Below, one piece after another: positions 24,296 through 37,305 of a stretch of 37,305 nt of DNA. Source of the DNA: a virus. Under the pieces are notes generated by a model. The model saw only the letters and a program-made list of their open reading frames with translations, was not told the origin of the DNA and made no database searches. Where the stretch lies: the IMG/VR virus record IMGVR_UViG_3300002061_000001; one strand, written 5' to 3'. Made by a program: the position numbers and the translations under genes. Every line of letters begins with the position of its first letter. Position 1 is the stretch's first letter.

Positions 24296-26062
24296 ATGGC
24301 CGATAACACTTTAACCACCAAGACCGACCCTCACGTTGTTGTTGTTGATGATTTTAATGATATTCATACAGCGCTCAAGGGCGACTTTGTCGGCCGCTCA
24401 GCCTCAACGGGTGCGGCCAGTGATCAAGAGCGTCTCGGCACGCCTGTCGTGCCTTGGCTTGAGGCTCACGTCGGTAGCCTATTTTTGAACGGCTCTATTT
24501 TTGACCCTGACAATCTAGGGGTCGGCACGAACACAAAAAACTCAGTAAGCGACGGACGCACAAGAGCGGGCTCGATATTCCCTGACTTTATCCGAGCCGA
24601 CGGCACGGCCGCAAGCGCTACTATTTTGGCGGGTGACACTGACCTGAAATACACGGCGAACAATGTCGGGGTTATTCTTACGGCCGACGTGAGTTTAACC
24701 TCTTTGACGGTTGCGCCATCTAGCGAGAACACGGCGACAATCAACGACAGCGACCTCTCGGGCGATCTGAGCTCTAAGTATGCGGGCGAGGGTCAAAGCG
24801 GCTCTATCGAGATTGATAGCGCGGGCGACGAGATCACTAATCGGGTCGGTCAATATGCTTGTTTTAAGCATGGCACGAGCGAGCTGTTTTTTGCTTTTGT
24901 GCAACAGGCCGACGGTAGCGCCAACACCGCAACTCTGACCAATGTTTTTAGAGGGTTTTTCTTTGATGATTCGGGCGAGCCTATTGTGCGCGAGGTTATG
25001 AGTGACGACGACACGATCACGCTCATGTCCCTTGGTTGGGTATTTGCTCAGAACAACGGCACGGTTTTCGACGTGTCTTACCGCTCACCAATATACAGCG
25101 GCAAAGAGCCCGCGAGTGCTGTTGTTGATGATTACTGGTTTGATCTTAATGCGCAAAATTGGTTTCGCTATGACGGCACAAGTTTCGTCGAGATCGAGAG
25201 AACATTGCTCGGAGTCGTCGTTATTGATGGGACAAATTGCATAGCGTCAAGATCGTTTGATTTTGCAAAGAGCTATGATGAAACTATTGATATTGAAATG
25301 AATACCACGCCAAAGAGCGACACAGCCGTCGAGACGGCCGATGCGTTCAATAAGGTTAGCGTGTATGCTCAAACGCTCGAACTCTTCTCAGGGCGCTTAT
25401 TCTGGGATATTGAGACCGATCTCGAAAGTGGTCTCACCGAGGCGAACGATACGCTGTATTATTTGTATGTCACCGAAGAGGGCAAGCCCGTCATATCAGA
25501 CGAGCGCCCTTATGACAGGACGGCCGAGCTTAAGGGGTACTATCACCCGTATCACTCATGGCGCTTTGTCGGTGTTGCGTTCAATGATGATAGCGGCAAC
25601 TTCTCAACGGCCAACTCTAAAAACAACAATCAGAAACGAATTAAAGAGTTTACCGACAGCGAGAGCTTTTTGCCTTTGCCGAACGTGACGAGCTTTACGG
25701 TCAGGCTTTGGGGCGGTGGTGGTGGTGGTAATCAAGGCTCTATTGCGGGCTCGGCGGGCGGCACAACAAGTTTCGGGACGTATTGCTCAGCAACAGGCGG
25801 CGCGGGAGCAACGCAAAGCGCAGACGGCGCAGACGGAACGGGGGTCGGCTGTAAAGCGAATTACAGCGGCAATCAAAACTTGCTCGGGTATTCTAACGGC
25901 GGCACGGACGGCATTAACAACACGGGCGGCAATGGCGGTTATGGGTTTCATATCGTTGAAGAGATAAAAAGCACTGTTATACAAGTCTCAGTCGGCGCGG
26001 CGGGCACGGGATTTTATGCAACTCAAATCGGTGAAAAAGGCTTTTGCCTAGTGGAGTATTAA
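24296..26062 (+). CDS. Tail fibre protein with a C-terminal glycine-rich domain.
   Basis: 588 aa. C-terminal FTVRLWGGGGGGNQGSIAGSAGGTTSFG...ATGGAGA...NGGTDGINNTGGNGGYG. Confidence 0.65.
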   Translation: MADNTLTTKTDPHVVVVDDFNDIHTALKGDFVGRSASTGAASDQERLGTPVVPWLEAHVGSLFLNGSIFDPDNLGVGTNTKNSVSDGRTRAGSIFPDFIRADGTAASATILAGDTDLKYTANNVGVILTADVSLTSLTVAPSSENTATINDSDLSGDLSSKYAGEGQSGSIEIDSAGDEITNRVGQYACFKHGTSELFFAFVQQADGSANTATLTNVFRGFFFDDSGEPIVREVMSDDDTITLMSLGWVFAQNNGTVFDVSYRSPIYSGKEPASAVVDDYWFDLNAQNWFRYDGTSFVEIERTLLGVVVIDGTNCIASRSFDFAKSYDETIDIEMNTTPKSDTAVETADAFNKVSVYAQTLELFSGRLFWDIETDLESGLTEANDTLYYLYVTEEGKPVISDERPYDRTAELKGYYHPYHSWRFVGVAFNDDSGNFSTANSKNNNQKRIKEFTDSESFLPLPNVTSFTVRLWGGGGGGNQGSIAGSAGGTTSFGTYCSATGGAGATQSADGADGTGVGCKANYSGNQNLLGYSNGGTDGINNTGGNGGYGFHIVEEIKSTVIQVSVGAAGTGFYATQIGEKGFCLVEY

Positions 26063-26064
26063 AA

Positions 26065-26592
26065 ATGAAATTTGCAAGAATAGATAGCGGCGTTGTTGCT
26101 GAGATTTTTGAGGGCGAATCATTGCCTCAATTTCACCCTTCTCTCGTTTGGGTTTCGGGTGTGCCTGATACGGTCTCGGTTGGTTGGGGTTACGATGGTA
26201 ACTCATTCTCGAGCCCCGACAGCTTGTTCACCGTTCAAGAGATGCGAGATGCACGCTCGGCCGAAGTGTCAGCGCTCAGAGATCAAAAATATACAGAGGG
26301 TTTTGATTACAACGGCAAGAATTTTCAAGTTGACCTTGAGGCTCAAAAAGATATGACGGCCGTGCAAGTGCAGTTTTTATCAGGTGTTTCTAATCCACAC
26401 GGCGGCGCTTGGCGTACGAGCGACAATGAGGCTATCACTATGAGTGATAATGATGTAAAGTTGTTTATGCAAGCGGCATTTACATATGTGGCGGGCATTA
26501 AGGGTGCGTCATGGCTTCACAAGGAAAACATTGCGGCGCTTAATGCGAAATCTGATATAGAACAATATGACATAAGTAAAGGGTGGCCGTAA
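26065..26592 (+). CDS. DUF4376-like protein (tail-fibre assembly/chaperone-type).
   Basis: ATG 26065 lies 8 nt after ggag (the track start is TTG 26044). DQKYTEGFDYNGKNFQVDLEAQKDMTAVQ fits the DUF4376 pattern usually found next to fibres. Confidence 0.55.
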   Translation: MKFARIDSGVVAEIFEGESLPQFHPSLVWVSGVPDTVSVGWGYDGNSFSSPDSLFTVQEMRDARSAEVSALRDQKYTEGFDYNGKNFQVDLEAQKDMTAVQVQFLSGVSNPHGGAWRTSDNEAITMSDNDVKLFMQAAFTYVAGIKGASWLHKENIAALNAKSDIEQYDISKGWP

Positions 26593-26933
26593 TGGACAAA
26601 GATGCAGGGTTGATATTAAGCGGGGTTGCCTCGTTTTTGTTTTTTGTTTTAGCGACAGCGTTTAAAAAAATATTTGATAAATCGGACGATGCGCTCAAGG
26701 TTGCTATAGAGGCGAAGAGCGGAGTTGCGAGCTTAAAAGAAGAGCACGAAAAAAGAGACAATGAGATTAACAGGCGATTAAAAGGAATTGACGAAAACCT
26801 CAAAAAGGTCGATAGCGTTGAGATCAGCATGGCTCGCCTTGAAGCGAACTCTCAGAATATGTCGCGAGTGATGGAAAAAATGGAGGCTCACCTTTTAAGG
26901 ATAGAGCAAAATCAAAATGCTTATAGTGATTGA
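26592..26933 (+). CDS. N-terminally membrane-anchored coiled-coil protein (DUF2730-like). Lysis-associated: holin, antiholin or spanin-like.
   Basis: TM segment GLILSGVASFLFFVLATAF followed by a charged coiled coil. ATG 26592 overlaps TAA (TAATG). The track start is GTG 26583. Confidence 0.5.
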   Translation: MDKDAGLILSGVASFLFFVLATAFKKIFDKSDDALKVAIEAKSGVASLKEEHEKRDNEINRRLKGIDENLKKVDSVEISMARLEANSQNMSRVMEKMEAHLLRIEQNQNAYSD

Positions 26934-27312
26934 GGATAGCGACGGCGATTACGGTATCTATAATCAGAGTATTCTTTATGGAATACCTCATGTTAGGTTC
27001 TCGAGTATCGCCGACTTTAAAAAAAGCGAAGTTGATTTTGATGTTGTTTTGACCGACCTCTCTATCATCGATTCGTCGTCGAGCGAGACGGTGAGAAAAA
27101 TCAGAGAAGAGACTGAGAAGCCTATTTTTGTGCTAACGGGCGCGGCGGGCATATATCTAACAGGCCGATCGTTTAAATCTATAATGGACGCGGGCGCGAC
27201 CGAGGTTTTTGAAAAAAATAAAACAAAAGACAAATCATATTCTGATATGATTAGATCTGTTTTAATGAGAGAGATTGGTTGCTTTGATGGCAGTAGCAAA
27301 GACGAGGGGTGA
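26917..27312 (+). CDS. Stand-alone response-regulator receiver (CheY-like) domain protein.
   Basis: 131 aa. LIVIEDSD (beta1 acidic pocket), FDVVLTD47LS (phospho-acceptor), PIFVLT74G, ATEVFEK100N. All canonical receiver positions are present with correct spacing, and there is no output domain. Confidence 0.7.
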   Translation: MLIVIEDSDGDYGIYNQSILYGIPHVRFSSIADFKKSEVDFDVVLTDLSIIDSSSSETVRKIREETEKPIFVLTGAAGIYLTGRSFKSIMDAGATEVFEKNKTKDKSYSDMIRSVLMREIGCFDGSSKDEG

Positions 27313-27532
27313 AAGATCGAGCGAGTTTAAAGCTGTTATGATAGCTTTTTGCGCGGGTTTTTTTCTCGCCGTTATTGCTCTTTTAAAGTCGAGCGACCCT
27401 GACCTCGCTCAGGTTGGTGTTTTAATCGGCGCGGTCACATTCCCTTTGATGTGGTATTGTGGCGCAAGAACAGTCTTTAAAATGAAGCAAGGTGAGGCCA
27501 GTTATGATCTTTCGCAAAAAGAAAAAGAGTAG
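27287..27532 (+). CDS. Two-TM small membrane protein, holin candidate.
   Basis: TM1 AVMIAFCAGFFLAVIALL, TM2 VGVLIGAVTFPLMWYCGA, charged C-terminus. Overlaps the receiver gene by 26 nt and the endolysin by 29 nt. Confidence 0.6.
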   Translation: MAVAKTRGERSSEFKAVMIAFCAGFFLAVIALLKSSDPDLAQVGVLIGAVTFPLMWYCGARTVFKMKQGEASYDLSQKEKE

Positions 27533-28091
27533 AATAAACCCCGCGCTTGTCGGCGTTGACCTGCCTAGCAAGTACAGGTTTTTGCTGTATGAGAAAAGCC
27601 CGAAAATACTTATCGAGTCTCTCAAGTTGCACGGCACTCTAGAGGTAAAAGGCGCGGGCAATAACCCCGTCATTCTCGGGTGGGCAAAAGAGGTCGGCGG
27701 TTGGATTGGTCGTTTTTACGATAAAGACTCAATACCTTGGTGTGGCCTGTATATCGCGCTTTTGTGTAAGCGTGCGGGTTTACCGTACAATCAAAAAGCA
27801 TTGTCGGCGCTGTCTTGGGCGGCTTGGGGTGAGCCTGTTGATGTGCCTATGCTCGGCGATATTTTGACATTTACGCGCAAGGGCGGCGGCCATGTCGGGC
27901 TATATGTTGGCGAGGACGAGACGCATTATCATGTTCACGGCGGCAACCAATCGGACTCGGTCAGCTTTACCCGTATAGCAAAGACGCGGTTTTATGAAGC
28001 TCGCCGCACAAAATGGAAATGGTCACAGCCTAAAAATATTAGGCGTATCTTTCTTGATGGTGTCGGCCGCATATCTGAGAATGAGGCTTGA
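27504..28091 (+). CDS. Endolysin, TIGR02594/NlpC-P60 (CHAP-like) cysteine peptidase family.
   Basis: GAGNNPVILGW, DSIPWCGLYIALLCKRAGL (catalytic Cys), GGGHVGLYVGED (His), HGGNQSDSVS. ATG 27504 lies 7 nt after aaggtgagg. Confidence 0.75.
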   Translation: MIFRKKKKSRINPALVGVDLPSKYRFLLYEKSPKILIESLKLHGTLEVKGAGNNPVILGWAKEVGGWIGRFYDKDSIPWCGLYIALLCKRAGLPYNQKALSALSWAAWGEPVDVPMLGDILTFTRKGGGHVGLYVGEDETHYHVHGGNQSDSVSFTRIAKTRFYEARRTKWKWSQPKNIRRIFLDGVGRISENEA

Positions 28092-28093
28092 TC

Positions 28094-28360
28094 ATGTTTG
28101 GACTGTTTAATATCGCACGAATAGCAGGGTTTCTCGCAAAGAATAAGCTGTATATTTACAGCGCCCTCGCGATCGCGGCCGTGTTCTTTGCGCTCGGCGC
28201 TTATTCGGGTTATAGTTTTAAGGACTACCTGAGCAACCGATCGACATTTAAAGAGATCAGTAAAAACCTAGAACTCAAAGAGGGTCTTGATGAAATACGT
28301 AATAACAGTGGCGGCCGCGATGATCTTATTGACGGCTTGCTCGACGGCAAATTTGAGTGA
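28094..28360 (+). CDS. i-spanin candidate (N-terminal TM, short periplasmic helix).
   Basis: TM LYIYSALAIAAVFFALGAYSGY. Lies directly after the endolysin, and its 3' end overlaps the lipoprotein gene. Confidence 0.5.
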   Translation: MFGLFNIARIAGFLAKNKLYIYSALAIAAVFFALGAYSGYSFKDYLSNRSTFKEISKNLELKEGLDEIRNNSGGRDDLIDGLLDGKFE

Positions 28361-28556
28361 AAAAGCTGTCGTGCAATCGCGCAAGGTCGCAATGCCCGAC
28401 GTTAAAAAATACCCTGAGAGCGATCTTATAAAGGCGGGCAAAGAGCTCAAGGCTTGCGAGAGATCAAAAGAGCTCGATTGCTCAATGATCGAAAAGCTGT
28501 TGATCGACGCTAAAATATTGCGCCGACAAGTCATTCACTTAATCGAAAACCTATAA
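28290..28556 (+). CDS. Outer-membrane lipoprotein, o-spanin candidate.
   Basis: MKYVITVAAAMILLTAC has the lipobox L-L-T-A-C. The start lies within the 3' end of the preceding TM gene (overlapped spanin architecture). Confidence 0.6.
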   Translation: MKYVITVAAAMILLTACSTANLSEKAVVQSRKVAMPDVKKYPESDLIKAGKELKACERSKELDCSMIEKLLIDAKILRRQVIHLIENL

Positions 28557-28582: not shown

Positions 28583-28819
28583 TTACTTGCCGCAATGAGG
28601 GCAAGTGCGCAAAGTTAAAACAATCGACCTAGCCATGTGTTTATGATTGATTAGCAACCCTTTCGCCTCAAGTTGGTCGACCAATCTACAGACTTGTGAT
28701 TTTGATTTTAATTTCATGGCCGCCGCGAGCTCAGAAAAACTCGGTGTCAGCTCGTTCTTTTTATAGAGCTCTTGAAAGACCTCGATAAATTTTTTCTCTT
28801 GTGCTGTCACGCCTTGCAT
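28583..28819 (-). CDS. LexA-type winged-helix DNA-binding-domain-only protein with a C-terminal CxxC.
   Basis: VTAQEKKFIEVFQELYKKNELTPSFSELAAAMKLKSKSQVCRLVDQLEAKGLLI aligns residue-class for residue-class with the LexA N-terminal domain. No S24 peptidase domain. Ends in CPHCGK. Confidence 0.65.
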   Translation of the reverse strand: MQGVTAQEKKFIEVFQELYKKNELTPSFSELAAAMKLKSKSQVCRLVDQLEAKGLLINHKHMARSIVLTLRTCPHCGK

Positions 28820-28821
28820 GA

Positions 28822-29517
28822 TTACCCCGCCTGTAAATTATCGAGAGACGTGTACGCGCCCGACTGAGTTGCTTTTGATGGTATGCTTTCAGGCTGAGAC
28901 CAACGGCCGAGCCTTTGGAGCTTGGCAATTCTCTCGCTCATAAGGTCTCTGAAAGACTCCATGCACGCCGCGAGCTCTTTGATGTACGCCTCGTCACGCT
29001 CGACCCTGACAGGCACGGGCATAAGGTCGGGGTGATAGAGCCAATAGTCACAATATTGACGATCTGAGACCCATAGCTGACCCTGTATTTGAGGGGTATG
29101 CTCGGCCTTGTGTACGTTTTCGATCATGTATGTCACATGGTTTTTCGTGTCGAGACACTTGATCTCGCCGCAACCATCGTCACCGATAAGGAAGTCAGGC
29201 GAGCAACCGAACGTCTTTTTGTCGTTGGTGATAAAACCGCTCGTCTCGGTCTTGACCCCGTTGATCATCTCGTAAGCCCGTCGAGCGTCAACCTCAAGTA
29301 TCTGGCCGCGCCTCATGTGAAAGGTCGGCTCAAAAATGCCTTGCGATTCGCCCGTCATAAGCTCGGCGATCTTAAGGTCGGCGTACGGCTTTGCTTGAGC
29401 TGATAACTTCATTGTTTTCGGTGTCATTATCTTTCCGAAATTTGATGCTGTCGGTATGCCAAGACGCGCCTCAAACCATGCGTCCTCGCCTTGAATGACG
29501 TTGTGATGTATTGGCAT
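28822..29517 (-). CDS. YqaJ/lambda-Exo-like recombination exonuclease (PD-(D/E)XK).
   Basis: QGEDAWFEARLGIPTASNFGKIMT and GCSPDFLIGDDGCGEIKCL (D...EIK catalytic motif). Confidence 0.8.
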   Translation of the reverse strand: MPIHHNVIQGEDAWFEARLGIPTASNFGKIMTPKTMKLSAQAKPYADLKIAELMTGESQGIFEPTFHMRRGQILEVDARRAYEMINGVKTETSGFITNDKKTFGCSPDFLIGDDGCGEIKCLDTKNHVTYMIENVHKAEHTPQIQGQLWVSDRQYCDYWLYHPDLMPVPVRVERDEAYIKELAACMESFRDLMSERIAKLQRLGRWSQPESIPSKATQSGAYTSLDNLQAG

Positions 29518-30377
29518 TATATCAACTCACCCTCTTTGGCGGTCTCGTCGTCGCTCGCCTCTTGTTGGCTGTTCTCGACTTTGGCTTTTGCTGTCTCAGC
29601 CTCGGCCGCCATGCGCGCCCGCTGATCTTCGATGCGCTTTTTCTTGGCTCTCAGCATATTCGCCGCCTTGAGGTAATTCTTTTGCTTGATCTGTTTGATC
29701 GCCGCAACACCCATAAATTCGCAGAACTGAGCAATGTCTGCATCGGTCTCGTCGATTAGGGATTGAAGAGAGGCGAGCTGATCGTCGTCGAGCTCATAAT
29801 CTATGAACTGGTTACCGTCGTCGTCGTCGCTTGTCTTAATGCCGAGCGCTTTGCAAAGGGCGAGCCTTTCGCCATATGTCATTGACGATGCGGCCGCGTG
29901 AGGCTTTGTCTTATTGATTGAGCCTTTGATGCCCGCATTATCAAAATGAATTTGCACGCGGTTTCGTTTTGAGTGCCCTGACTCATGCACGATCTCGCAC
30001 GTTGTGCCGATCAGGTCTTTCTCAGGGTAGTCGTTTTCGTAACGCTCAAAAAAACCGTGCTTTGCGAGCAACGGGTCAACGGCCTTTTTGATAGCCTCGA
30101 GGTCAGCGTATCGAGAGCTTGTTTGACCGTTTTGCTTGTTCTTAACGATCGTCACTTGAGCGAGCTCACGCCTGAGCGCCGCCATGCTCTTATTGTAGTC
30201 GATCTCAGCTTGACGATCGAGCACGCGCTCGTTCGCCGTGATTAAAGCGTTGATCTTCTCAACGTCGACCTCGGGGTTCGCGATAGCGACCTCGATAACG
30301 CTCGTCATGCTTTGCACGTTTTGCTCGGTCTTGTTCTCGGTCAAGGTGGTGACCGCCTGTTGTTTTGTATCTGTCAT
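29517..30377 (-). CDS. erf: ERF-family single-strand annealing protein.
   Basis: SRYADLEAIKKAVDPLLAKHGFF...TCEIVHESGH is typical of ERF. The stop overlaps the exonuclease start (TAATG). Confidence 0.7.
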   Translation of the reverse strand: MTDTKQQAVTTLTENKTEQNVQSMTSVIEVAIANPEVDVEKINALITANERVLDRQAEIDYNKSMAALRRELAQVTIVKNKQNGQTSSRYADLEAIKKAVDPLLAKHGFFERYENDYPEKDLIGTTCEIVHESGHSKRNRVQIHFDNAGIKGSINKTKPHAAASSMTYGERLALCKALGIKTSDDDDGNQFIDYELDDDQLASLQSLIDETDADIAQFCEFMGVAAIKQIKQKNYLKAANMLRAKKKRIEDQRARMAAEAETAKAKVENSQQEASDDETAKEGELI

Positions 30378-31756: not shown

Positions 31757-31936
31757 ATGGCGAATGATATTAACAGTAAAGATCAGCGTATTACGTTTTA
31801 CGGCGGCGAGCTGAAACAAGAGCTCGTAAAGAAAATGGCTAAAGACCCGAGGTTTTTGAGCCTGACAAAATATGTCGCTCACTTGGTCGCGGTCGGGCTT
31901 GAGAATGATACCCTCGAAACGCCGATCAAAAGCTAA
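31757..31936 (+). CDS. Ribbon-helix-helix (Arc/CopG/MetJ-type) transcriptional regulator (59 aa, below the ORF-track cutoff).
   Basis: ATG 31757 after aaaaggaattaagaaa, TAA 31934-31936 overlapping the next ATG. QRITFYGGELKQELVKKMAKDPRFLSLTKYVAHLVAVGLE gives strand, helix, helix. Confidence 0.65.
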   Translation: MANDINSKDQRITFYGGELKQELVKKMAKDPRFLSLTKYVAHLVAVGLENDTLETPIKS

Positions 31937-32223
31937 TGAGTGAGGCTGACAAAAAAGCCCCTGAGATAGGGCACAACTCAGAACGCTTTGACAGCATAGC
32001 CGCAACACGAATCCGTCAATGTATGGATAGGGTCGGCAAGCTGACCGACGAGCGTAAGGATATTAACGACAGCATAAACGATGTATATGCCGAGATGAAA
32101 GGTGTCGGTTTTGACGTTAAGGTCTTGCGTAAACTGTTTAAGCTCGAGCGCATGGAGGCTGAAAAGAGGCGCGAGGCTCAAGAGTTGCTCGACCTGTATA
32201 AAGCCGCCCTCGGTATGGATTGA
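31936..32223 (+). CDS. gapR: GapR/DUF2312 (UPF0335) family DNA-binding protein.
   Basis: INDSINDVYAEMKGVGFDVKVLRKLFKLERM...AQELLDLYKAALGM closely follows the GapR signature i.d.ik.vyaEaK..GfD.kalR.ii.lRk...e....ildlY..alG. Confidence 0.75.
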   Translation: MSEADKKAPEIGHNSERFDSIAATRIRQCMDRVGKLTDERKDINDSINDVYAEMKGVGFDVKVLRKLFKLERMEAEKRREAQELLDLYKAALGMD

Positions 32224-36805: not shown

Positions 36806-37305
36806 ATGGCTTTAAAAACTATGGAACGATTCGCCAAGTCAGGCGGCAAGAGCAAGCTCGACATACTCAAGCGATTTTATTGCGACGGCGATAAGGCGAC
36901 CGTGATTGACTTTGATTTCGCTATCGAGACAAAAAGCAACGTGAGCAAGGGGGTGTATTACGCCGAGGGGTACTCTAAAGGGTTTCGTATAGCGACGTAT
37001 GACAAGCCCGAGGAAGCGCCAAAAATGGACAGGGGCGAAAGCGTCCTCGCTGTCGTTGATCTTGACGAGGAAAAGATTGAGGCTCTTGCATGGGTCGCAA
37101 AGGCTGTCTCAACTGATCAAACTAGGTATTACCTGAACGGCGTTTGTTTTGATGGCGACAAGATCGTCGCAACCGACGGCCATAGATTACACCTTATGCA
37201 AGACGACGAGTTGACGGCTTGGGTCGGTAAGAAAGAGACTTTAATATTGCCGCGTGAGGCTCTATCTGTTGCCCTAAGTATCATAAAAGAGACTAAGGCG
37301 ACCGA
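36806..37305 (+). CDS. dnaN: DNA polymerase III beta (sliding clamp) homologue, N-terminal part (3'-truncated by the window edge; continues at base 50).
   Basis: ATG 36806 after aagaaagagagac. Open to the window end. TRYYLNGVCFDGDKIVATDGHRLHL is the hallmark clamp domain-II motif (RYYLNG...VATDGHRL). Confidence 0.8.
   Translation, partial: MALKTMERFAKSGGKSKLDILKRFYCDGDKATVIDFDFAIETKSNVSKGVYYAEGYSKGFRIATYDKPEEAPKMDRGESVLAVVDLDEEKIEALAWVAKAVSTDQTRYYLNGVCFDGDKIVATDGHRLHLMQDDELTAWVGKKETLILPREALSVALSIIKETKAT
37257..37305. repeat. Terminal direct repeat, copy 2 (identical to 1-49).
   Basis: Same 49-mer as bases 1-49. The reading frame of the clamp gene is continuous across the join. Confidence 0.95.

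What the first reader, a model, noticed from the sequence alone, without database searches (positions are those of the whole stretch)
26917..27312. Stand-alone CheY-like receiver domain gene wired into the phage lysis cassette
- **Seen in sequence:** The 131-aa product has every canonical receiver-domain position with correct spacing: acidic pocket LIVIEDSD, acceptor Asp in FDVVLTD47LS, Thr in PIFVLT74G and Lys in EVFEK100N. It has no output domain, and I found no histidine kinase in the genome.
- **Gene context:** The gene overlaps the upstream TM/coiled-coil gene by 17 nt and the downstream two-TM holin candidate by 26 nt. That holin candidate in turn overlaps the endolysin by 29 nt, so all four look translationally coupled.
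- **Composition:** The region is visibly A/T-richer than the rest. By hand count, the first 60 nt of this gene are 23/60 G+C, against 31/60 at the start of terL.
- **Established knowledge:** Lysis timing is normally set by holin/antiholin pairs, and receiver domains are phosphorylated by host kinases or acetyl phosphate.
- **Inference:** The phage may couple lysis timing to a host two-component or metabolic phosphorylation signal. Alternatively it may act as a phosphate sink for a host pathway late in infection. I am not aware of a described lysis cassette of this design.
Basis: partly seen in the sequence, partly recalled or inferred. Interest (0 to 1): 0.75.

Follow-up and report, generated by a model that had tools for sequence, protein, structure and literature searches.

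The report
Phospho-receiver protein inside phage lysis cassette
An uncultured phage carries a small CheY-type phosphorylation-receiver protein which, with a membrane-anchored coiled-coil partner, sits just upstream of the cell-wall-degrading enzyme in many unrelated phages, suggesting an undescribed phosphorylation-controlled step in host lysis.

Summary
The 131-aa ORF, the residue positions, the 17/26/29-nt overlaps and the low G+C all check out.

**Domain call.** Alone the protein misses Pfam's Response_reg threshold (17.5 vs 30.2 bits). An exhaustive HMMER search found about 25 stand-alone relatives. Their profile matches solved receiver domains over the full length (E 2e-12). An AlphaFold model (pLDDT 93.5) is a (βα)5 fold, and the 50 best PDB matches listed are all receiver domains. 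The acidic pair, the acceptor Asp, the Thr/Ser and the Lys are kept in 26/26 sequences, so phosphorylation chemistry appears to be under selection.

**New finding.** In every family locus with upstream sequence, the receiver gene abuts a single-pass membrane coiled-coil protein. In 8 of 10 loci with downstream sequence, an endolysin follows within two genes. Five different endolysin families are involved. So this is a conserved two-gene module at the head of lysis cassettes.

**Prior description.** No cultured-phage homologue and no paper describing this were found. Alteromonas phage V22 has an analogous arrangement that has gone unremarked.

**Mechanism (inferred).** A cytoplasmic phospho-switch, fed by a host donor, acts on the membrane partner to tune holin/endolysin release.

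**Verdict.** Real, interesting, and a new variant of lysis control. The function is untested.

The parts
26592..26933 (+). Membrane-anchored coiled-coil partner gene (113 aa from the ATG at 26592; the ORF opens at GTG 26583). It has a short acidic N-tail, one TM helix at residues 6-24, K/R residues just after the TM, and then a long charged helical region ending in RIEQNQ. Predicted topology is N-out/C-in, with the coiled coil in the cytoplasm. It is a candidate holin or holin regulator.
   Evidence: - Hydropathy and charge counts.
- Homologues stand directly upstream of the receiver in 7 other loci and align along their length (A5).
- Only generic coiled-coil hits were found in the PDB and Pfam.
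- Some homologues match phrog_1009 or phrog_736, both of unknown function.
- The gene overlaps the receiver gene by 17 nt.
26917..27312 (+). Stand-alone receiver (REC) domain gene, 131 aa. E6-D7 form the acidic pair, D47 is the phospho-acceptor, and T74 and K100 complete the active site. There is no output domain. The family has a 4-residue insertion in the beta4-alpha4 loop (TGAAGIYLTG), no Pro after the Lys, and Val at the aromatic switch position.
27287..27532 (+). Two-TM small membrane protein (81 aa) with a charged C-terminus; a holin candidate. It overlaps the receiver gene by 26 nt and the endolysin gene by 29 nt.
   Evidence: - TM segments at residues 15-33 and 40-58.
- By eye, the 2-TM proteins in L012 (after the endolysin) and L013 (after the receiver) share the motif GVLIGAV..PLMW.
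- No significant Pfam or PHROG holin hit was found, so the holin role is inferred.
27504..28091 (+). Endolysin (195 aa), TIGR02594 / NlpC-P60-CHAP-like cell-wall peptidase with no signal or SAR sequence.
   Evidence: - TIGR02594: 88.9 bits, cutoff 70.55.
- phrog_1259 lysozyme region: E 1.8e-25.
- Weak CHAP and NLPC_P60 hits.
- 52% identity to proteins of Flavobacterium phages.
28094..28360 (+). i-spanin-like protein (88 aa). K/R residues precede an N-terminal TM helix, which implies N-in topology, and a charged C-terminal region follows.
   Evidence: TM at residues 19-42. Assignment rests on position and architecture; only weak family hits were found.
28290..28556 (+). o-spanin-like lipoprotein (88 aa) with signal peptide and lipobox MKYVITVAAAMILLTAC. 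The gene starts inside the i-spanin gene in another frame (the overlapped spanin arrangement). This implies a Gram-negative host.
   Evidence: - Sequence.
- Weak lipoprotein and Rz-like spanin hits.

Best explanation
The gene encodes a genuine single-domain response-regulator receiver that is very likely phosphorylatable. With the gene just upstream, a single-pass membrane protein whose coiled coil is predicted to face the cytoplasm, it forms a conserved, translationally coupled two-gene module at the head of phage lysis cassettes.

**Most likely mechanism.**
- The receiver is made late, together with the lysis proteins.
- It takes a phosphoryl group on D47 from a host donor: a histidine kinase, an Hpt protein or acetyl phosphate. 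No kinase was found in the window.
- Depending on its phosphorylation state, it binds or releases the cytoplasmic coiled coil of the membrane partner, probably through its unusual beta4-alpha4/alpha4-beta5 face.
- This delays or advances holin triggering and endolysin release.
- In effect it would be a phospho-switchable cytoplasmic antiholin or holin activator that couples lysis time to the host's signalling or energy state.

**Shown here:** the fold, the active-site conservation, the lysis-cassette context, and conservation of the module across unrelated phages.

**Inferred:** the topology of the partner, the physical interaction, the phosphodonor, and any effect on lysis timing.
For: **Domain.**
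- The family profile matches solved receiver domains over the full length (E 2e-12).
- 25/26 members hit PF00072.
- The AF2 model has pLDDT 93.5 and a (beta-alpha)5 fold.
- The top 50 PDB fold hits are all receiver domains.

**Chemistry under selection.**
- Only four columns are invariant among 26 sequences that are 23-46% identical to the window protein. Three of them are D7, D47 and K100.
- E/D6 and T/S74 are also 26/26.

**Module.**
- A single-TM coiled-coil protein abuts the receiver in the window, L006, L008, L010, L012, L013, L022, L023, L025 and L026.
- The same holds in the more distant L015.
- The P0005 locus has a 91-aa gene in that position, with no DNA held, so its architecture could not be checked.
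- Gene junctions between partner and receiver are -20 to +2 nt.
- Eight of the partners align as one family.

**Lysis link.** The next gene or the one after it is an endolysin from one of five families:
- TIGR02594 (window).
- Amidase_2 (L006, L012).
- Peptidase_M15_4 (L010, L022).
- Peptidase_M15_3 (P0005 locus).
- Hydrolase_2 followed by GTA_holin_3TM (L024, L025).
- In L026 a Holin_LLH-like protein follows.
- In T7-like loci the partner occupies the slot right after the tail-fibre gene. From my own knowledge, that is where T7 has its holin.

**Topology.**
- N-tails carry 0-1 K/R and 1-2 D/E, against 2-4 K/R in the 15 residues after the TM, in the 7 partners with a clear TM segment; L023 has none.
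- Variants in L012, L015 and L026 have the TM at the C-terminus instead.
- Both arrangements put the coiled coil in the cytoplasm with the receiver.

**No kinase.** No kinase or Hpt was found among 58 other window ORFs.

**Precedent.** T4 RIII is a cytoplasmic antiholin (PMC8385771).
Against: - All functional evidence is guilt by association. No interaction, phosphorylation or lysis phenotype has been tested.
- Topology rests on the positive-inside rule only. One partner (L010) weakly hits an Rz-like spanin PHROG. If the coiled coil were periplasmic, it could not contact the receiver.
- The family lacks the aromatic switch residue (Val in 20/26) and the Lys-Pro motif (0/26), so the usual output mechanics may not apply.
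- In L015 no lysis gene was recognised next to the pair.
- The host and any cognate kinase are unknown.
Confidence: 0.5

Rival explanations
1. Phosphate sink or decoy. The receiver drains phosphoryl groups from a host histidine kinase or phosphorelay late in infection, for example an envelope-stress system or, in an alphaproteobacterial host, CckA-ChpT. This would blunt a host response. It has no direct action on the lysis proteins.
For: - The active site is intact, there is no output domain, and no phage kinase was found.
- The best single-sequence PDB hit is the CtrA receiver crystallised with ChpT (4qpj, E 5e-4).
- A GapR-like gene in the window (81.7 bits) points to an alphaproteobacterial host.
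- RcGTA lysis depends on CtrA and the CckA relay (PMC6363796).
Against: - A sink needs no dedicated membrane partner, yet the partner is conserved and translationally coupled in all loci examined.
- The family profile's best hits are DrrB and NtrC1, not CtrA.
- CtrA boxes are not enriched: 2 found against 1.24 expected.
- An analogous arrangement occurs in a gammaproteobacterial phage, V22, so a CtrA-specific story cannot be general.
Confidence: 0.15
2. Phosphorylation-independent adaptor. The receiver fold serves only as a structural subunit, chaperone or stabiliser of the membrane coiled-coil protein, as with pseudo-receivers. It would contribute to lysis without sensing anything.
For: - The aromatic switch and the K-P motif are missing.
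- No kinase is encoded in the window.
- The tight coupling to the partner fits a stoichiometric complex.
Against: - Pseudo-receivers typically lose active-site residues. Here D7, D47 and K100 are three of the only four invariant columns, and E/D6 and T/S74 are kept in 26/26 sequences despite 23-46% overall identity.
Confidence: 0.15
3. The pair is not a lysis function at all. It could be a late-expressed accessory module, for example superinfection exclusion, membrane remodelling or host takeover, that merely rides in the late operon between tail-fibre and lysis genes.
For: - Accessory genes often accumulate at module boundaries.
- The two genes have the lowest G+C of the cassette, 40.9% and 41.4% against 48.1%, as expected for a mobile insert.
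- In L015 the pair is not next to recognised lysis genes.
Against: - The pair stays immediately upstream of the endolysin while the endolysin family changes five times and the virion type changes. The virion types include Mu-like portal with tape measure, T7-like, and prophage.
- Its coding sequence overlaps the downstream lysis gene by 4-26 nt in 7 of 8 loci.
- In L012 the receiver lies between the partner and the endolysin, with the 2-TM protein after the endolysin. The pair is thus interleaved with lysis genes rather than appended to them.
Confidence: 0.15

Closest known systems
CheY and other single-domain response regulators (CheY, Spo0F, DivK, CpdR)
   Same: - The size is about 120-130 aa and the fold is (beta-alpha)5.
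- The acidic pair, acceptor Asp, Thr/Ser and Lys map to CheY D12/D13/D57/T87/K109.
- There is no output domain, so it must act by protein-protein contact, as CheY~P does on FliM.
   Different: - It is encoded by a phage, in a lysis cassette, with no che genes or kinase nearby.
- Val replaces the aromatic switch (Y106 in CheY), and no Pro follows the Lys.
- There is a 4-residue insertion in the beta4-alpha4 loop.
- The window protein alone is below Pfam's PF00072 threshold.
T4 RIII, the cytoplasmic antiholin (and, from my own knowledge, P1 LydB)
   Same: A small soluble cytoplasmic protein encoded by the phage that modulates a membrane lysis protein from the cytoplasmic side (PMC8385771). This is the closest functional analogy to the proposed mechanism.
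   Different: - There is no sequence or fold relation.
- RIII is not a phospho-receiver and is not known to sense a host signal.
- The role proposed here is untested.
Holin/antiholin pairs of lambdoid phages (S105/S107, S21 68/71) and T4 T/RI
   Same: They are lysis-timing devices encoded in the lysis cassette. Here too a small membrane protein with a charged cytoplasmic tail stands next to its presumed regulator.
   Different: Known antiholins are alternative translation products or periplasmic or cytoplasmic binders. To my knowledge, and in the searched literature, none is a two-component receiver domain.
Alteromonas phage vB_AmeM_PT11-V22, ORF28-ORF32 (MN877442)
   Same: - This cultured myovirus has an analogous gene string: tail fibre, chaperone, papain-like amidase, and a 125-aa protein with a hydrophobic N-terminus and a coiled coil.
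- These are followed by a 149-aa receiver, an N-TM coiled-coil protein, and a 2-TM protein.
   Different: - The V22 receiver is canonical (DD, D, S, K-P) and only generically related to this family.
- Its upstream protein is not detectably homologous to the partner family (hhalign probability 2%).
- The paper lists the gene only as a 'class II AMG, signalling' (PMC7289586).
RcGTA lysis control by CckA-ChpT-CtrA (Rhodobacter capsulatus)
   Same: - A phosphorelay governs when a phage-derived endolysin/holin pair lyses the cell (PMC6363796, PMC5026251).
- Two family members (L024, L025) sit directly upstream of the same endolysin/holin types, Hydrolase_2 and GTA_holin_3TM.
   Different: - In RcGTA, control is transcriptional, through the host's DNA-binding regulator CtrA.
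[quoted passage not shown]
- Here the receiver is phage-encoded and has no DNA-binding domain.
Other virus-encoded receiver domains (jumbo-phage cREC; CtrA-like ORF of roseophage RDJL-phi-1; giant-virus hybrid kinases)
   Same: They show that receiver folds do occur in viral genomes (PMC7824862; PMC5026251).
   Different: - cREC is linked to NAD/ADP-ribose and cyclic-phosphate processing.
- The RDJL-phi-1 ORF lies between gafA-like genes.
- None is reported in a lysis cassette with a membrane coiled-coil partner.

Membership tests
Response-regulator receiver domain (CheY-like superfamily, Pfam PF00072) | (beta-alpha)5 Rossmann-like fold | tested here: met
   - The AF2 model built with a 26-sequence alignment has pLDDT 93.5 and elements E-H-E-H-E-H-E-H-E-H.
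- The Foldseek top 50 PDB hits are all receiver domains, TM 0.6-0.78.
Response-regulator receiver domain (CheY-like superfamily, Pfam PF00072) | Conserved quintet: two acidic residues after beta1, acceptor Asp after beta3, Thr/Ser after beta4, Lys after beta5 | tested here: met
   E6, D7, D47, T74 and K100 align to CheY D12, D13, D57, T87 and K109. All five positions are conserved in 26/26 family members.
Response-regulator receiver domain (CheY-like superfamily, Pfam PF00072) | Sequence score above the curated Pfam gathering threshold | tested here: not met
   - The window protein scores 17.5 bits against a 30.2 cutoff, and only residues 39-104 align.
- 25/26 family members give PF00072 hits at E<=0.01, the best at 4e-12.
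- The family profile hits solved receivers at E 2e-12.
- It is therefore a divergent member, established transitively and by structure.
Response-regulator receiver domain (CheY-like superfamily, Pfam PF00072) | Aromatic switch residue on beta5 (CheY Y106) and the Lys-Pro cis-peptide. Both are common but not universal. | tested here: not met
   V97 and N101 occupy these positions. Across the family the switch position is aromatic in 2/26 and Pro follows the Lys in 0/26.
Response-regulator receiver domain (CheY-like superfamily, Pfam PF00072) | Mg2+-dependent phosphorylation of the acceptor Asp | not testable with these tools
   This needs biochemistry: acetyl phosphate or phosphoramidate, Phos-tag gels, and a D47A control.
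CheY proper (chemotaxis response regulator) | Partnership with CheA/CheZ and binding to the flagellar switch FliM, in a che/fla gene context | tested here: not met
   - No che, fla or kinase domains were found among the other 58 window ORFs.
- The neighbours are lysis genes.
- CheY chains rank well below OmpR- and NtrC-type receivers in the profile search.
Antiholin / holin regulator | Encoded in the lysis cassette and co-expressed with holin and endolysin | tested here: met
   The coding sequence overlaps both flanking cassette genes. The position is conserved upstream of five endolysin families.
Antiholin / holin regulator | Binds a holin and changes the time of triggering | not testable with these tools
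   This needs genetics and biochemistry.
Holin (for the flanking membrane proteins 26592-26933 and 27287-27532) | Small size, at least one TM helix, a charged hydrophilic C-terminus, and a location beside the endolysin | tested here: met
   Neither protein matches a curated holin family, so which one is the holin stays open.
Two-component spanin (28094-28360 and 28290-28556) | A type-II inner-membrane protein plus an outer-membrane lipoprotein with a lipobox, with genes overlapping | tested here: met
   The first has an N-terminal TM preceded by K/R. The second has the signal and lipobox MKYVITVAAAMILLTAC, and its gene starts inside the first in another frame. Family hits are only weak.

The most novel reading that the evidence does not exclude
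Many uncultured phages of Gram-negative bacteria may carry a phosphorylation-gated lysis clock. A phage-encoded single-domain response regulator would read a host phosphodonor, either a kinase/phosphorelay or acetyl phosphate, and so report host signalling or energy state. Through a dedicated membrane-anchored coiled-coil partner it would then set when the holin fires. This would be the first two-component-type sensory input acting post-translationally on phage lysis timing.
Probability: 0.35. Interest if true: 0.85.

Novelty: new variant of a known kind. Interest (0 to 1): 0.72.

Why it matters
Lysis timing sets burst size and phage fitness. Apart from T-even lysis inhibition, few ways are known for phages to adjust it to conditions after infection.

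A receiver domain conserved inside lysis cassettes would add a host-signal or energy-state input to the holin clock. That would be a new class of lysis regulator. It would also give a new example of single-domain response regulators acting on a membrane target, and a possible handle for engineering tunable lysis. The module's spread across T7-like, Mu-like-portal and prophage backgrounds, with five endolysin types, suggests it is an exchangeable, self-contained device.

The idea is directly testable. Cassettes can be synthesised and expressed. Alteromonas phage V22 is a cultured phage with an analogous arrangement.

Tried and rejected
- **Cultured phage relatives.** tblastn against 50,697 phage records found nothing for the receiver, for the family consensus, or for two partner proteins.
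- **Pattern scans.** Scans of IMG/VR with the receiver, a 3-sequence alignment and P0046 found no relatives. Two scans of GTDB genomes also found none, so no host could be named. Alignments A1 and A2 were too variable for pattern scans.
- **Metagenome scan.** It returned mostly cellular multi-domain regulators with a similar IEDNxGDY/DLxLPD/VLTG signature. Only L015 was phage-like.
- **CtrA/ChpT idea.**
  - The CtrA receiver is the best single-sequence PDB hit but not the best profile hit.
  - TTAA-N7-TTAA boxes are not enriched.
  - The RcGTA lysis locus has no reported receiver gene (PMC5026251).
  - An analogous arrangement exists in a gammaproteobacterial phage.
  - The idea is kept only as a weak, host-specific possibility.
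- **Partner as Hpt or DHp-like phosphodonor.** Rejected. No His is conserved; the His in RIExH is replaced by Y or A in four of eight partners.
- **Rosetta-stone fusions of receiver with a TM/coiled coil.** None were found. Longer hits are cellular REC-REC proteins, plus one receiver with a C-terminal coiled coil.
- **Single-sequence AlphaFold model.** Useless at pLDDT 45.
- **Promoter/terminator scan.** Nothing convincing.
- **tRNAs.** None found.
Full report
**1. Observation**

- The ORF at 26917-27312 (+) is real: ATG start, 131 aa.
- The overlaps are also exact. The ORF overlaps the upstream gene by 17 nt and the downstream 2-TM gene (ATG 27287) by 26 nt. That gene overlaps the endolysin gene (ATG 27504) by 29 nt.
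- The hand G+C counts (23/60 and 31/60) reproduce.
- The gene is 41.4% G+C against 48.1% for the window, the 3rd percentile of windows of equal length. The upstream gene is 40.9%.

**2. Is it a receiver domain?**

Taken alone, the evidence is weak.
- PF00072 scores 17.5 bits (E 0.005) against a gathering score of 30.2, and only residues 39-104 align.
- The best solved-structure sequence hit is the Brucella CtrA receiver at E 5e-4.
- NCBIfam gives only sub-threshold FixJ, MtrA and CtrA hits.
- The word-indexed search of 5.8 billion proteins found only the protein itself.

An exhaustive HMMER search of 1.84 billion representatives changed this.
- It gave 45 hits at E<=1e-3.
- About 25 of them are stand-alone proteins of 113-142 aa.
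- In the 26-sequence alignment A1 (23-46% identity to the window protein), only four columns are invariant: D7, D47, G93 and K100. E/D6 and T/S74 are also kept in 26/26.
- 25 of 26 members hit PF00072, the best at 4e-12.
- The A1 profile matches solved receivers over the full length: DrrB 3nns and NtrC1 1zy2 at E 2e-12.

Structure prediction agrees.
- The AlphaFold2 model made with A1 has pLDDT 93.5 and pTM 0.86, with five beta-alpha units. A single-sequence model was useless at pLDDT 45.
- The top 50 Foldseek PDB matches are all receiver domains, TM about 0.7.
- hhalign to E. coli CheY maps E6/D7, D47, T74 and K100 onto D12/D13, D57, T87 and K109.

The family has its own signature.
- There is a 4-residue insertion in the beta4-alpha4 loop: TG-x-[AG]-G-x-[YF]-[LM]-[TS]-G.
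- Val stands at the CheY Y106 position in 20/26.
- Pro never follows the Lys (0/26).

The domain call is therefore secure. Retention of the whole catalytic set at this divergence argues that phosphorylation chemistry is selected.

**3. Context in the window**

Gene order is as follows.

| Coordinates | Product |
|---|---|
| 24296-26062 | tail fibre, 588 aa (assigned by position; no family hit) |
| 26044-26592 | DUF4376 tail protein |
| 26592-26933 | 113-aa protein with one N-terminal TM and a long charged helical region |
| 26917-27312 | receiver |
| 27287-27532 | 81-aa 2-TM protein |
| 27504-28091 | TIGR02594 / NlpC-P60-like endolysin (88.9 bits, cutoff 70.55; phrog_1259, E 1.8e-25) |
| 28094-28360 | N-TM i-spanin-like protein |
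| 28290-28556 | lipoprotein with an LLTAC lipobox, in the overlapped-spanin arrangement |

- A convergent LexA-like repressor gene on the opposite strand follows the cassette and closes the late operon.
- This is a lysis cassette of a phage of a Gram-negative host.
- The rest of the window encodes a Mu-like portal and protease, a terminase, a tape-measure protein, ERF and YqaJ recombination proteins, and HNH. No HisKA, HATPase_c or Hpt domain was found.
- A GapR-like gene at 31936-32223 scores 81.7 bits. Its homologues in cultured phages come almost entirely from phages of Alphaproteobacteria. This is a lead to the host, not proof.
- The phage has no close cultured relative. Megablast found nothing, and terL is at most 43% identical to any cultured phage.

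**4. Comparative genomics: the key result**

The identical protein occurs on nine contigs of the same phage from several samples (cassette 99.7-100% identical). I looked up the contigs of ten family members other than the window protein, and scans added two more distant loci.

| Locus (member) | Gene order around the receiver (REC) |
|---|---|
| L006 (P0046) | Collar tail fibre, 91-aa TM-coiled-coil, REC, Amidase_2, two small TM proteins, terminase |
| L008 / L009 (P0047) | T7-type tail fibre, 85-aa TM-coiled-coil, REC |
| L010 (P0044) | DUF1353, 100-aa TM-coiled-coil, REC, Peptidase_M15_4 with an N-terminal hydrophobic (SAR-like) segment, N-TM protein |
| L012 (P0024) | tail protein, 118-aa coiled coil with a C-terminal TM, REC, Amidase_2, 2-TM protein resembling (shared motif, by eye) the window's |
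| L013 (P0007) | 89-aa TM-coiled-coil, REC, 2-TM protein |
| L022 (P0002, 50% identical) | 85-aa TM-coiled-coil, REC, Peptidase_M15_4, then T7-like packaging genes |
| P0005 locus (no DNA held) | T7 tail, DUF4376, 91 aa, REC, Peptidase_M15_3 |
| L023 (P0009) | Collar fibre, 86 aa, REC |
| L024 (P0014) and L025 (P0019) | REC, Hydrolase_2, GTA_holin_3TM. L025 has an 88-aa TM-coiled-coil upstream, and cellular genes follow, so it is the end of a prophage |
| L026 (IMG/VR) | 95 aa, REC, coiled coil with a C-terminal TM, Holin_LLH-like protein |
| L015 (more distant) | REC followed by a coiled coil with a C-terminal TM; no lysis gene recognised |

Four patterns emerge.
- (a) Every locus with upstream sequence pairs the receiver with a single-pass membrane coiled-coil protein. 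The P0005 locus has a gene of the right size but could not be checked.
- (b) Eight of the partners align as one family: an acidic N-tail, a TM with G-W, K/R plus 'KADDA', a coiled coil, and a C-terminal 'RIExHxLR'.
- (c) Partner-receiver junctions are -20 to +2 nt. Receiver-downstream junctions are -26 to -4 nt in 7 of 8 loci.
- (d) Within two genes downstream there is an endolysin in 8 of 10 loci with downstream sequence. The endolysins come from five unrelated families.

The module therefore stays put while the endolysin and the virion type change. That is the signature of a functional unit of the lysis cassette.

**5. The partner**

- It gives only generic coiled-coil matches: PDB designs and GCN4 fusions, Pfam LPP and DUF948 below threshold, and phrog_1009/736 of unknown function.
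- No His is conserved, so it is not an Hpt- or DHp-like donor.
- Charge distribution is consistent in the 7 partners with a clear TM segment. There are 0-1 K/R and 1-2 D/E before the TM, and 2-4 K/R in the 15 residues after it. L023 has no clear TM segment.
- This predicts N-out/C-in topology. By contrast, the window's own i-spanin-like protein has K/R before its TM.
- The variants with a C-terminal TM (L012, L015, L026) also place the coiled coil in the cytoplasm.
- So the coiled coil and the signal-less receiver probably share a compartment.
- In T7-like loci the partner takes the slot right after the tail-fibre gene. From my own knowledge, T7 has its holin gp17.5 there.
- In L010 and L022 the endolysin has an N-terminal hydrophobic (SAR-like) segment, and the partner is the only other holin-like candidate apart from a spanin-like protein.
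- The partner may therefore itself be a holin or pinholin, or a regulator of one.

**6. Mechanism**

The best-supported reading is a cytoplasmic phospho-switch.
- The receiver is phosphorylated on D47 by a host donor, since no phage kinase was seen.
- It then binds or releases the partner's coiled coil, and so modulates holin triggering or endolysin release.

Shown here:
- the fold;
- the conserved chemistry;
- the cassette context;
- conservation of the module.

Inferred:
- the topology;
- the contact;
- the donor;
- the effect on timing.

Rivals are a phosphate sink for a host pathway, a phosphorylation-independent adaptor, and a non-lysis accessory module.
- The conserved partner argues against the sink.
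- The invariant active site argues against the adaptor.
- The persistence of the position across five endolysin families, and the interleaving in L012, argue against the accessory module.

**7. Comparison with what is known**

- Searches of 7.7 million PMC papers plus bioRxiv found no description of a receiver domain in a phage lysis cassette.
- Viral receivers do exist (BFVD hits).
  - The jumbo-phage cREC is tied to NAD/ADP-ribose systems (PMC7824862).
  - A CtrA-like ORF in roseophage RDJL-phi-1 lies between gafA-type genes (PMC5026251).
- The closest functional analogy is T4's cytoplasmic antiholin RIII (PMC8385771).
- RcGTA lysis is controlled by the CckA-ChpT-CtrA relay, but transcriptionally and by host proteins (PMC6363796).
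- Alteromonas phage V22 (MN877442) shows an analogous string that has not been remarked on.
  - Its gene order is amidase, hydrophobic-N coiled-coil protein, 149-aa canonical receiver, spanin-like protein, 2-TM protein.
  - The proteins are not specifically related to this family.
  - The paper lists the receiver only as a signalling AMG (PMC7289586).
  - It offers a cultured test system.

**8. Verdict**

- At the protein level this is a divergent new subfamily of a very well-known domain.
- At the system level, a receiver plus a membrane coiled-coil module built into lysis cassettes appears undescribed. I rate it a new variant of a known kind (lysis-timing control).
- Function remains unproven. 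Interest is 0.72.

Noticed in passing
window 31936-32223 (+): A GapR-like DNA-binding protein gene (PF10073, 81.7 bits). Homologues in cultured phages come almost entirely from phages of Alphaproteobacteria such as Rhizobium, Agrobacterium, Ruegeria, Caulobacter and Brevundimonas. This hints at an alphaproteobacterial host despite the 48% G+C.
   Followed up: partly
L003 10588-10872 (corresponds to window 27504-28091): One environmental variant of the same phage (JGI 3300002063) carries an in-frame deletion of about 300 nt in the endolysin gene. The product is 94 aa and lacks the region holding the presumed catalytic Cys. The flanks are 99.7-99.9% identical. It may be a defective variant or an assembly artefact.
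   Followed up: partly
L027 4960-7039 (Alteromonas phage vB_AmeM_PT11-V22, MN877442, ORF28-ORF32): This cultured myovirus has a papain-like amidase, a coiled-coil protein with a hydrophobic N-terminus, a canonical 149-aa receiver, an N-TM coiled-coil protein and a 2-TM protein in a row after its tail-fibre genes. The arrangement is analogous to the window's and was published only as a 'signalling AMG' (PMC7289586).
   Followed up: partly
L024 55-1549 and L025 1533-3192: Family members sit directly upstream of a Hydrolase_2 endolysin and a GTA_holin_3TM holin, the same types as the RcGTA lysis genes. In L025 this is at the edge of a prophage, next to cellular genes: a Na+/H+ antiporter, SAICAR synthase and BolA.
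   Followed up: partly
window 28583-30377 (-): A divergent early/recombination module lies right after the lysis cassette. It encodes a 78-aa LexA-DNA-binding-domain protein, a YqaJ exonuclease and an ERF single-strand annealing protein.
   Followed up: no
window 36806-37303 (+), runs off the window end: A phage-encoded DNA polymerase III beta (sliding clamp)-like gene fragment (PF02767, 26 bits, just under the cutoff).
   Followed up: no
window 27157-27185 (+) and 26767-26781 (+): A 10/12 sigma-70-like promoter match lies inside the receiver gene, about 100 nt upstream of the 2-TM gene. A TTAA-N7-TTAA (CtrA-box-like) site lies inside the partner gene. Neither is more than chance would give.
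   Followed up: partly
window, ORFs not localised: Among the other window ORFs there are single Pfam hits to QSregVF_b (putative quorum-sensing-regulated virulence factor, E 3.9e-6), DUF6283 (E 4.6e-6) and RNase_T exonuclease (E 9.4e-15). I did not determine which ORFs these are.
   Followed up: no
P0013, P0023, P0027, P0039 (cellular proteins): The nearest cellular relatives are tandem REC-REC proteins that share the phage family's IEDNxGD / DLxLPDS / VLTG motifs and also lack Pro after the Lys. They are a possible cellular source of the phage family.
   Followed up: no
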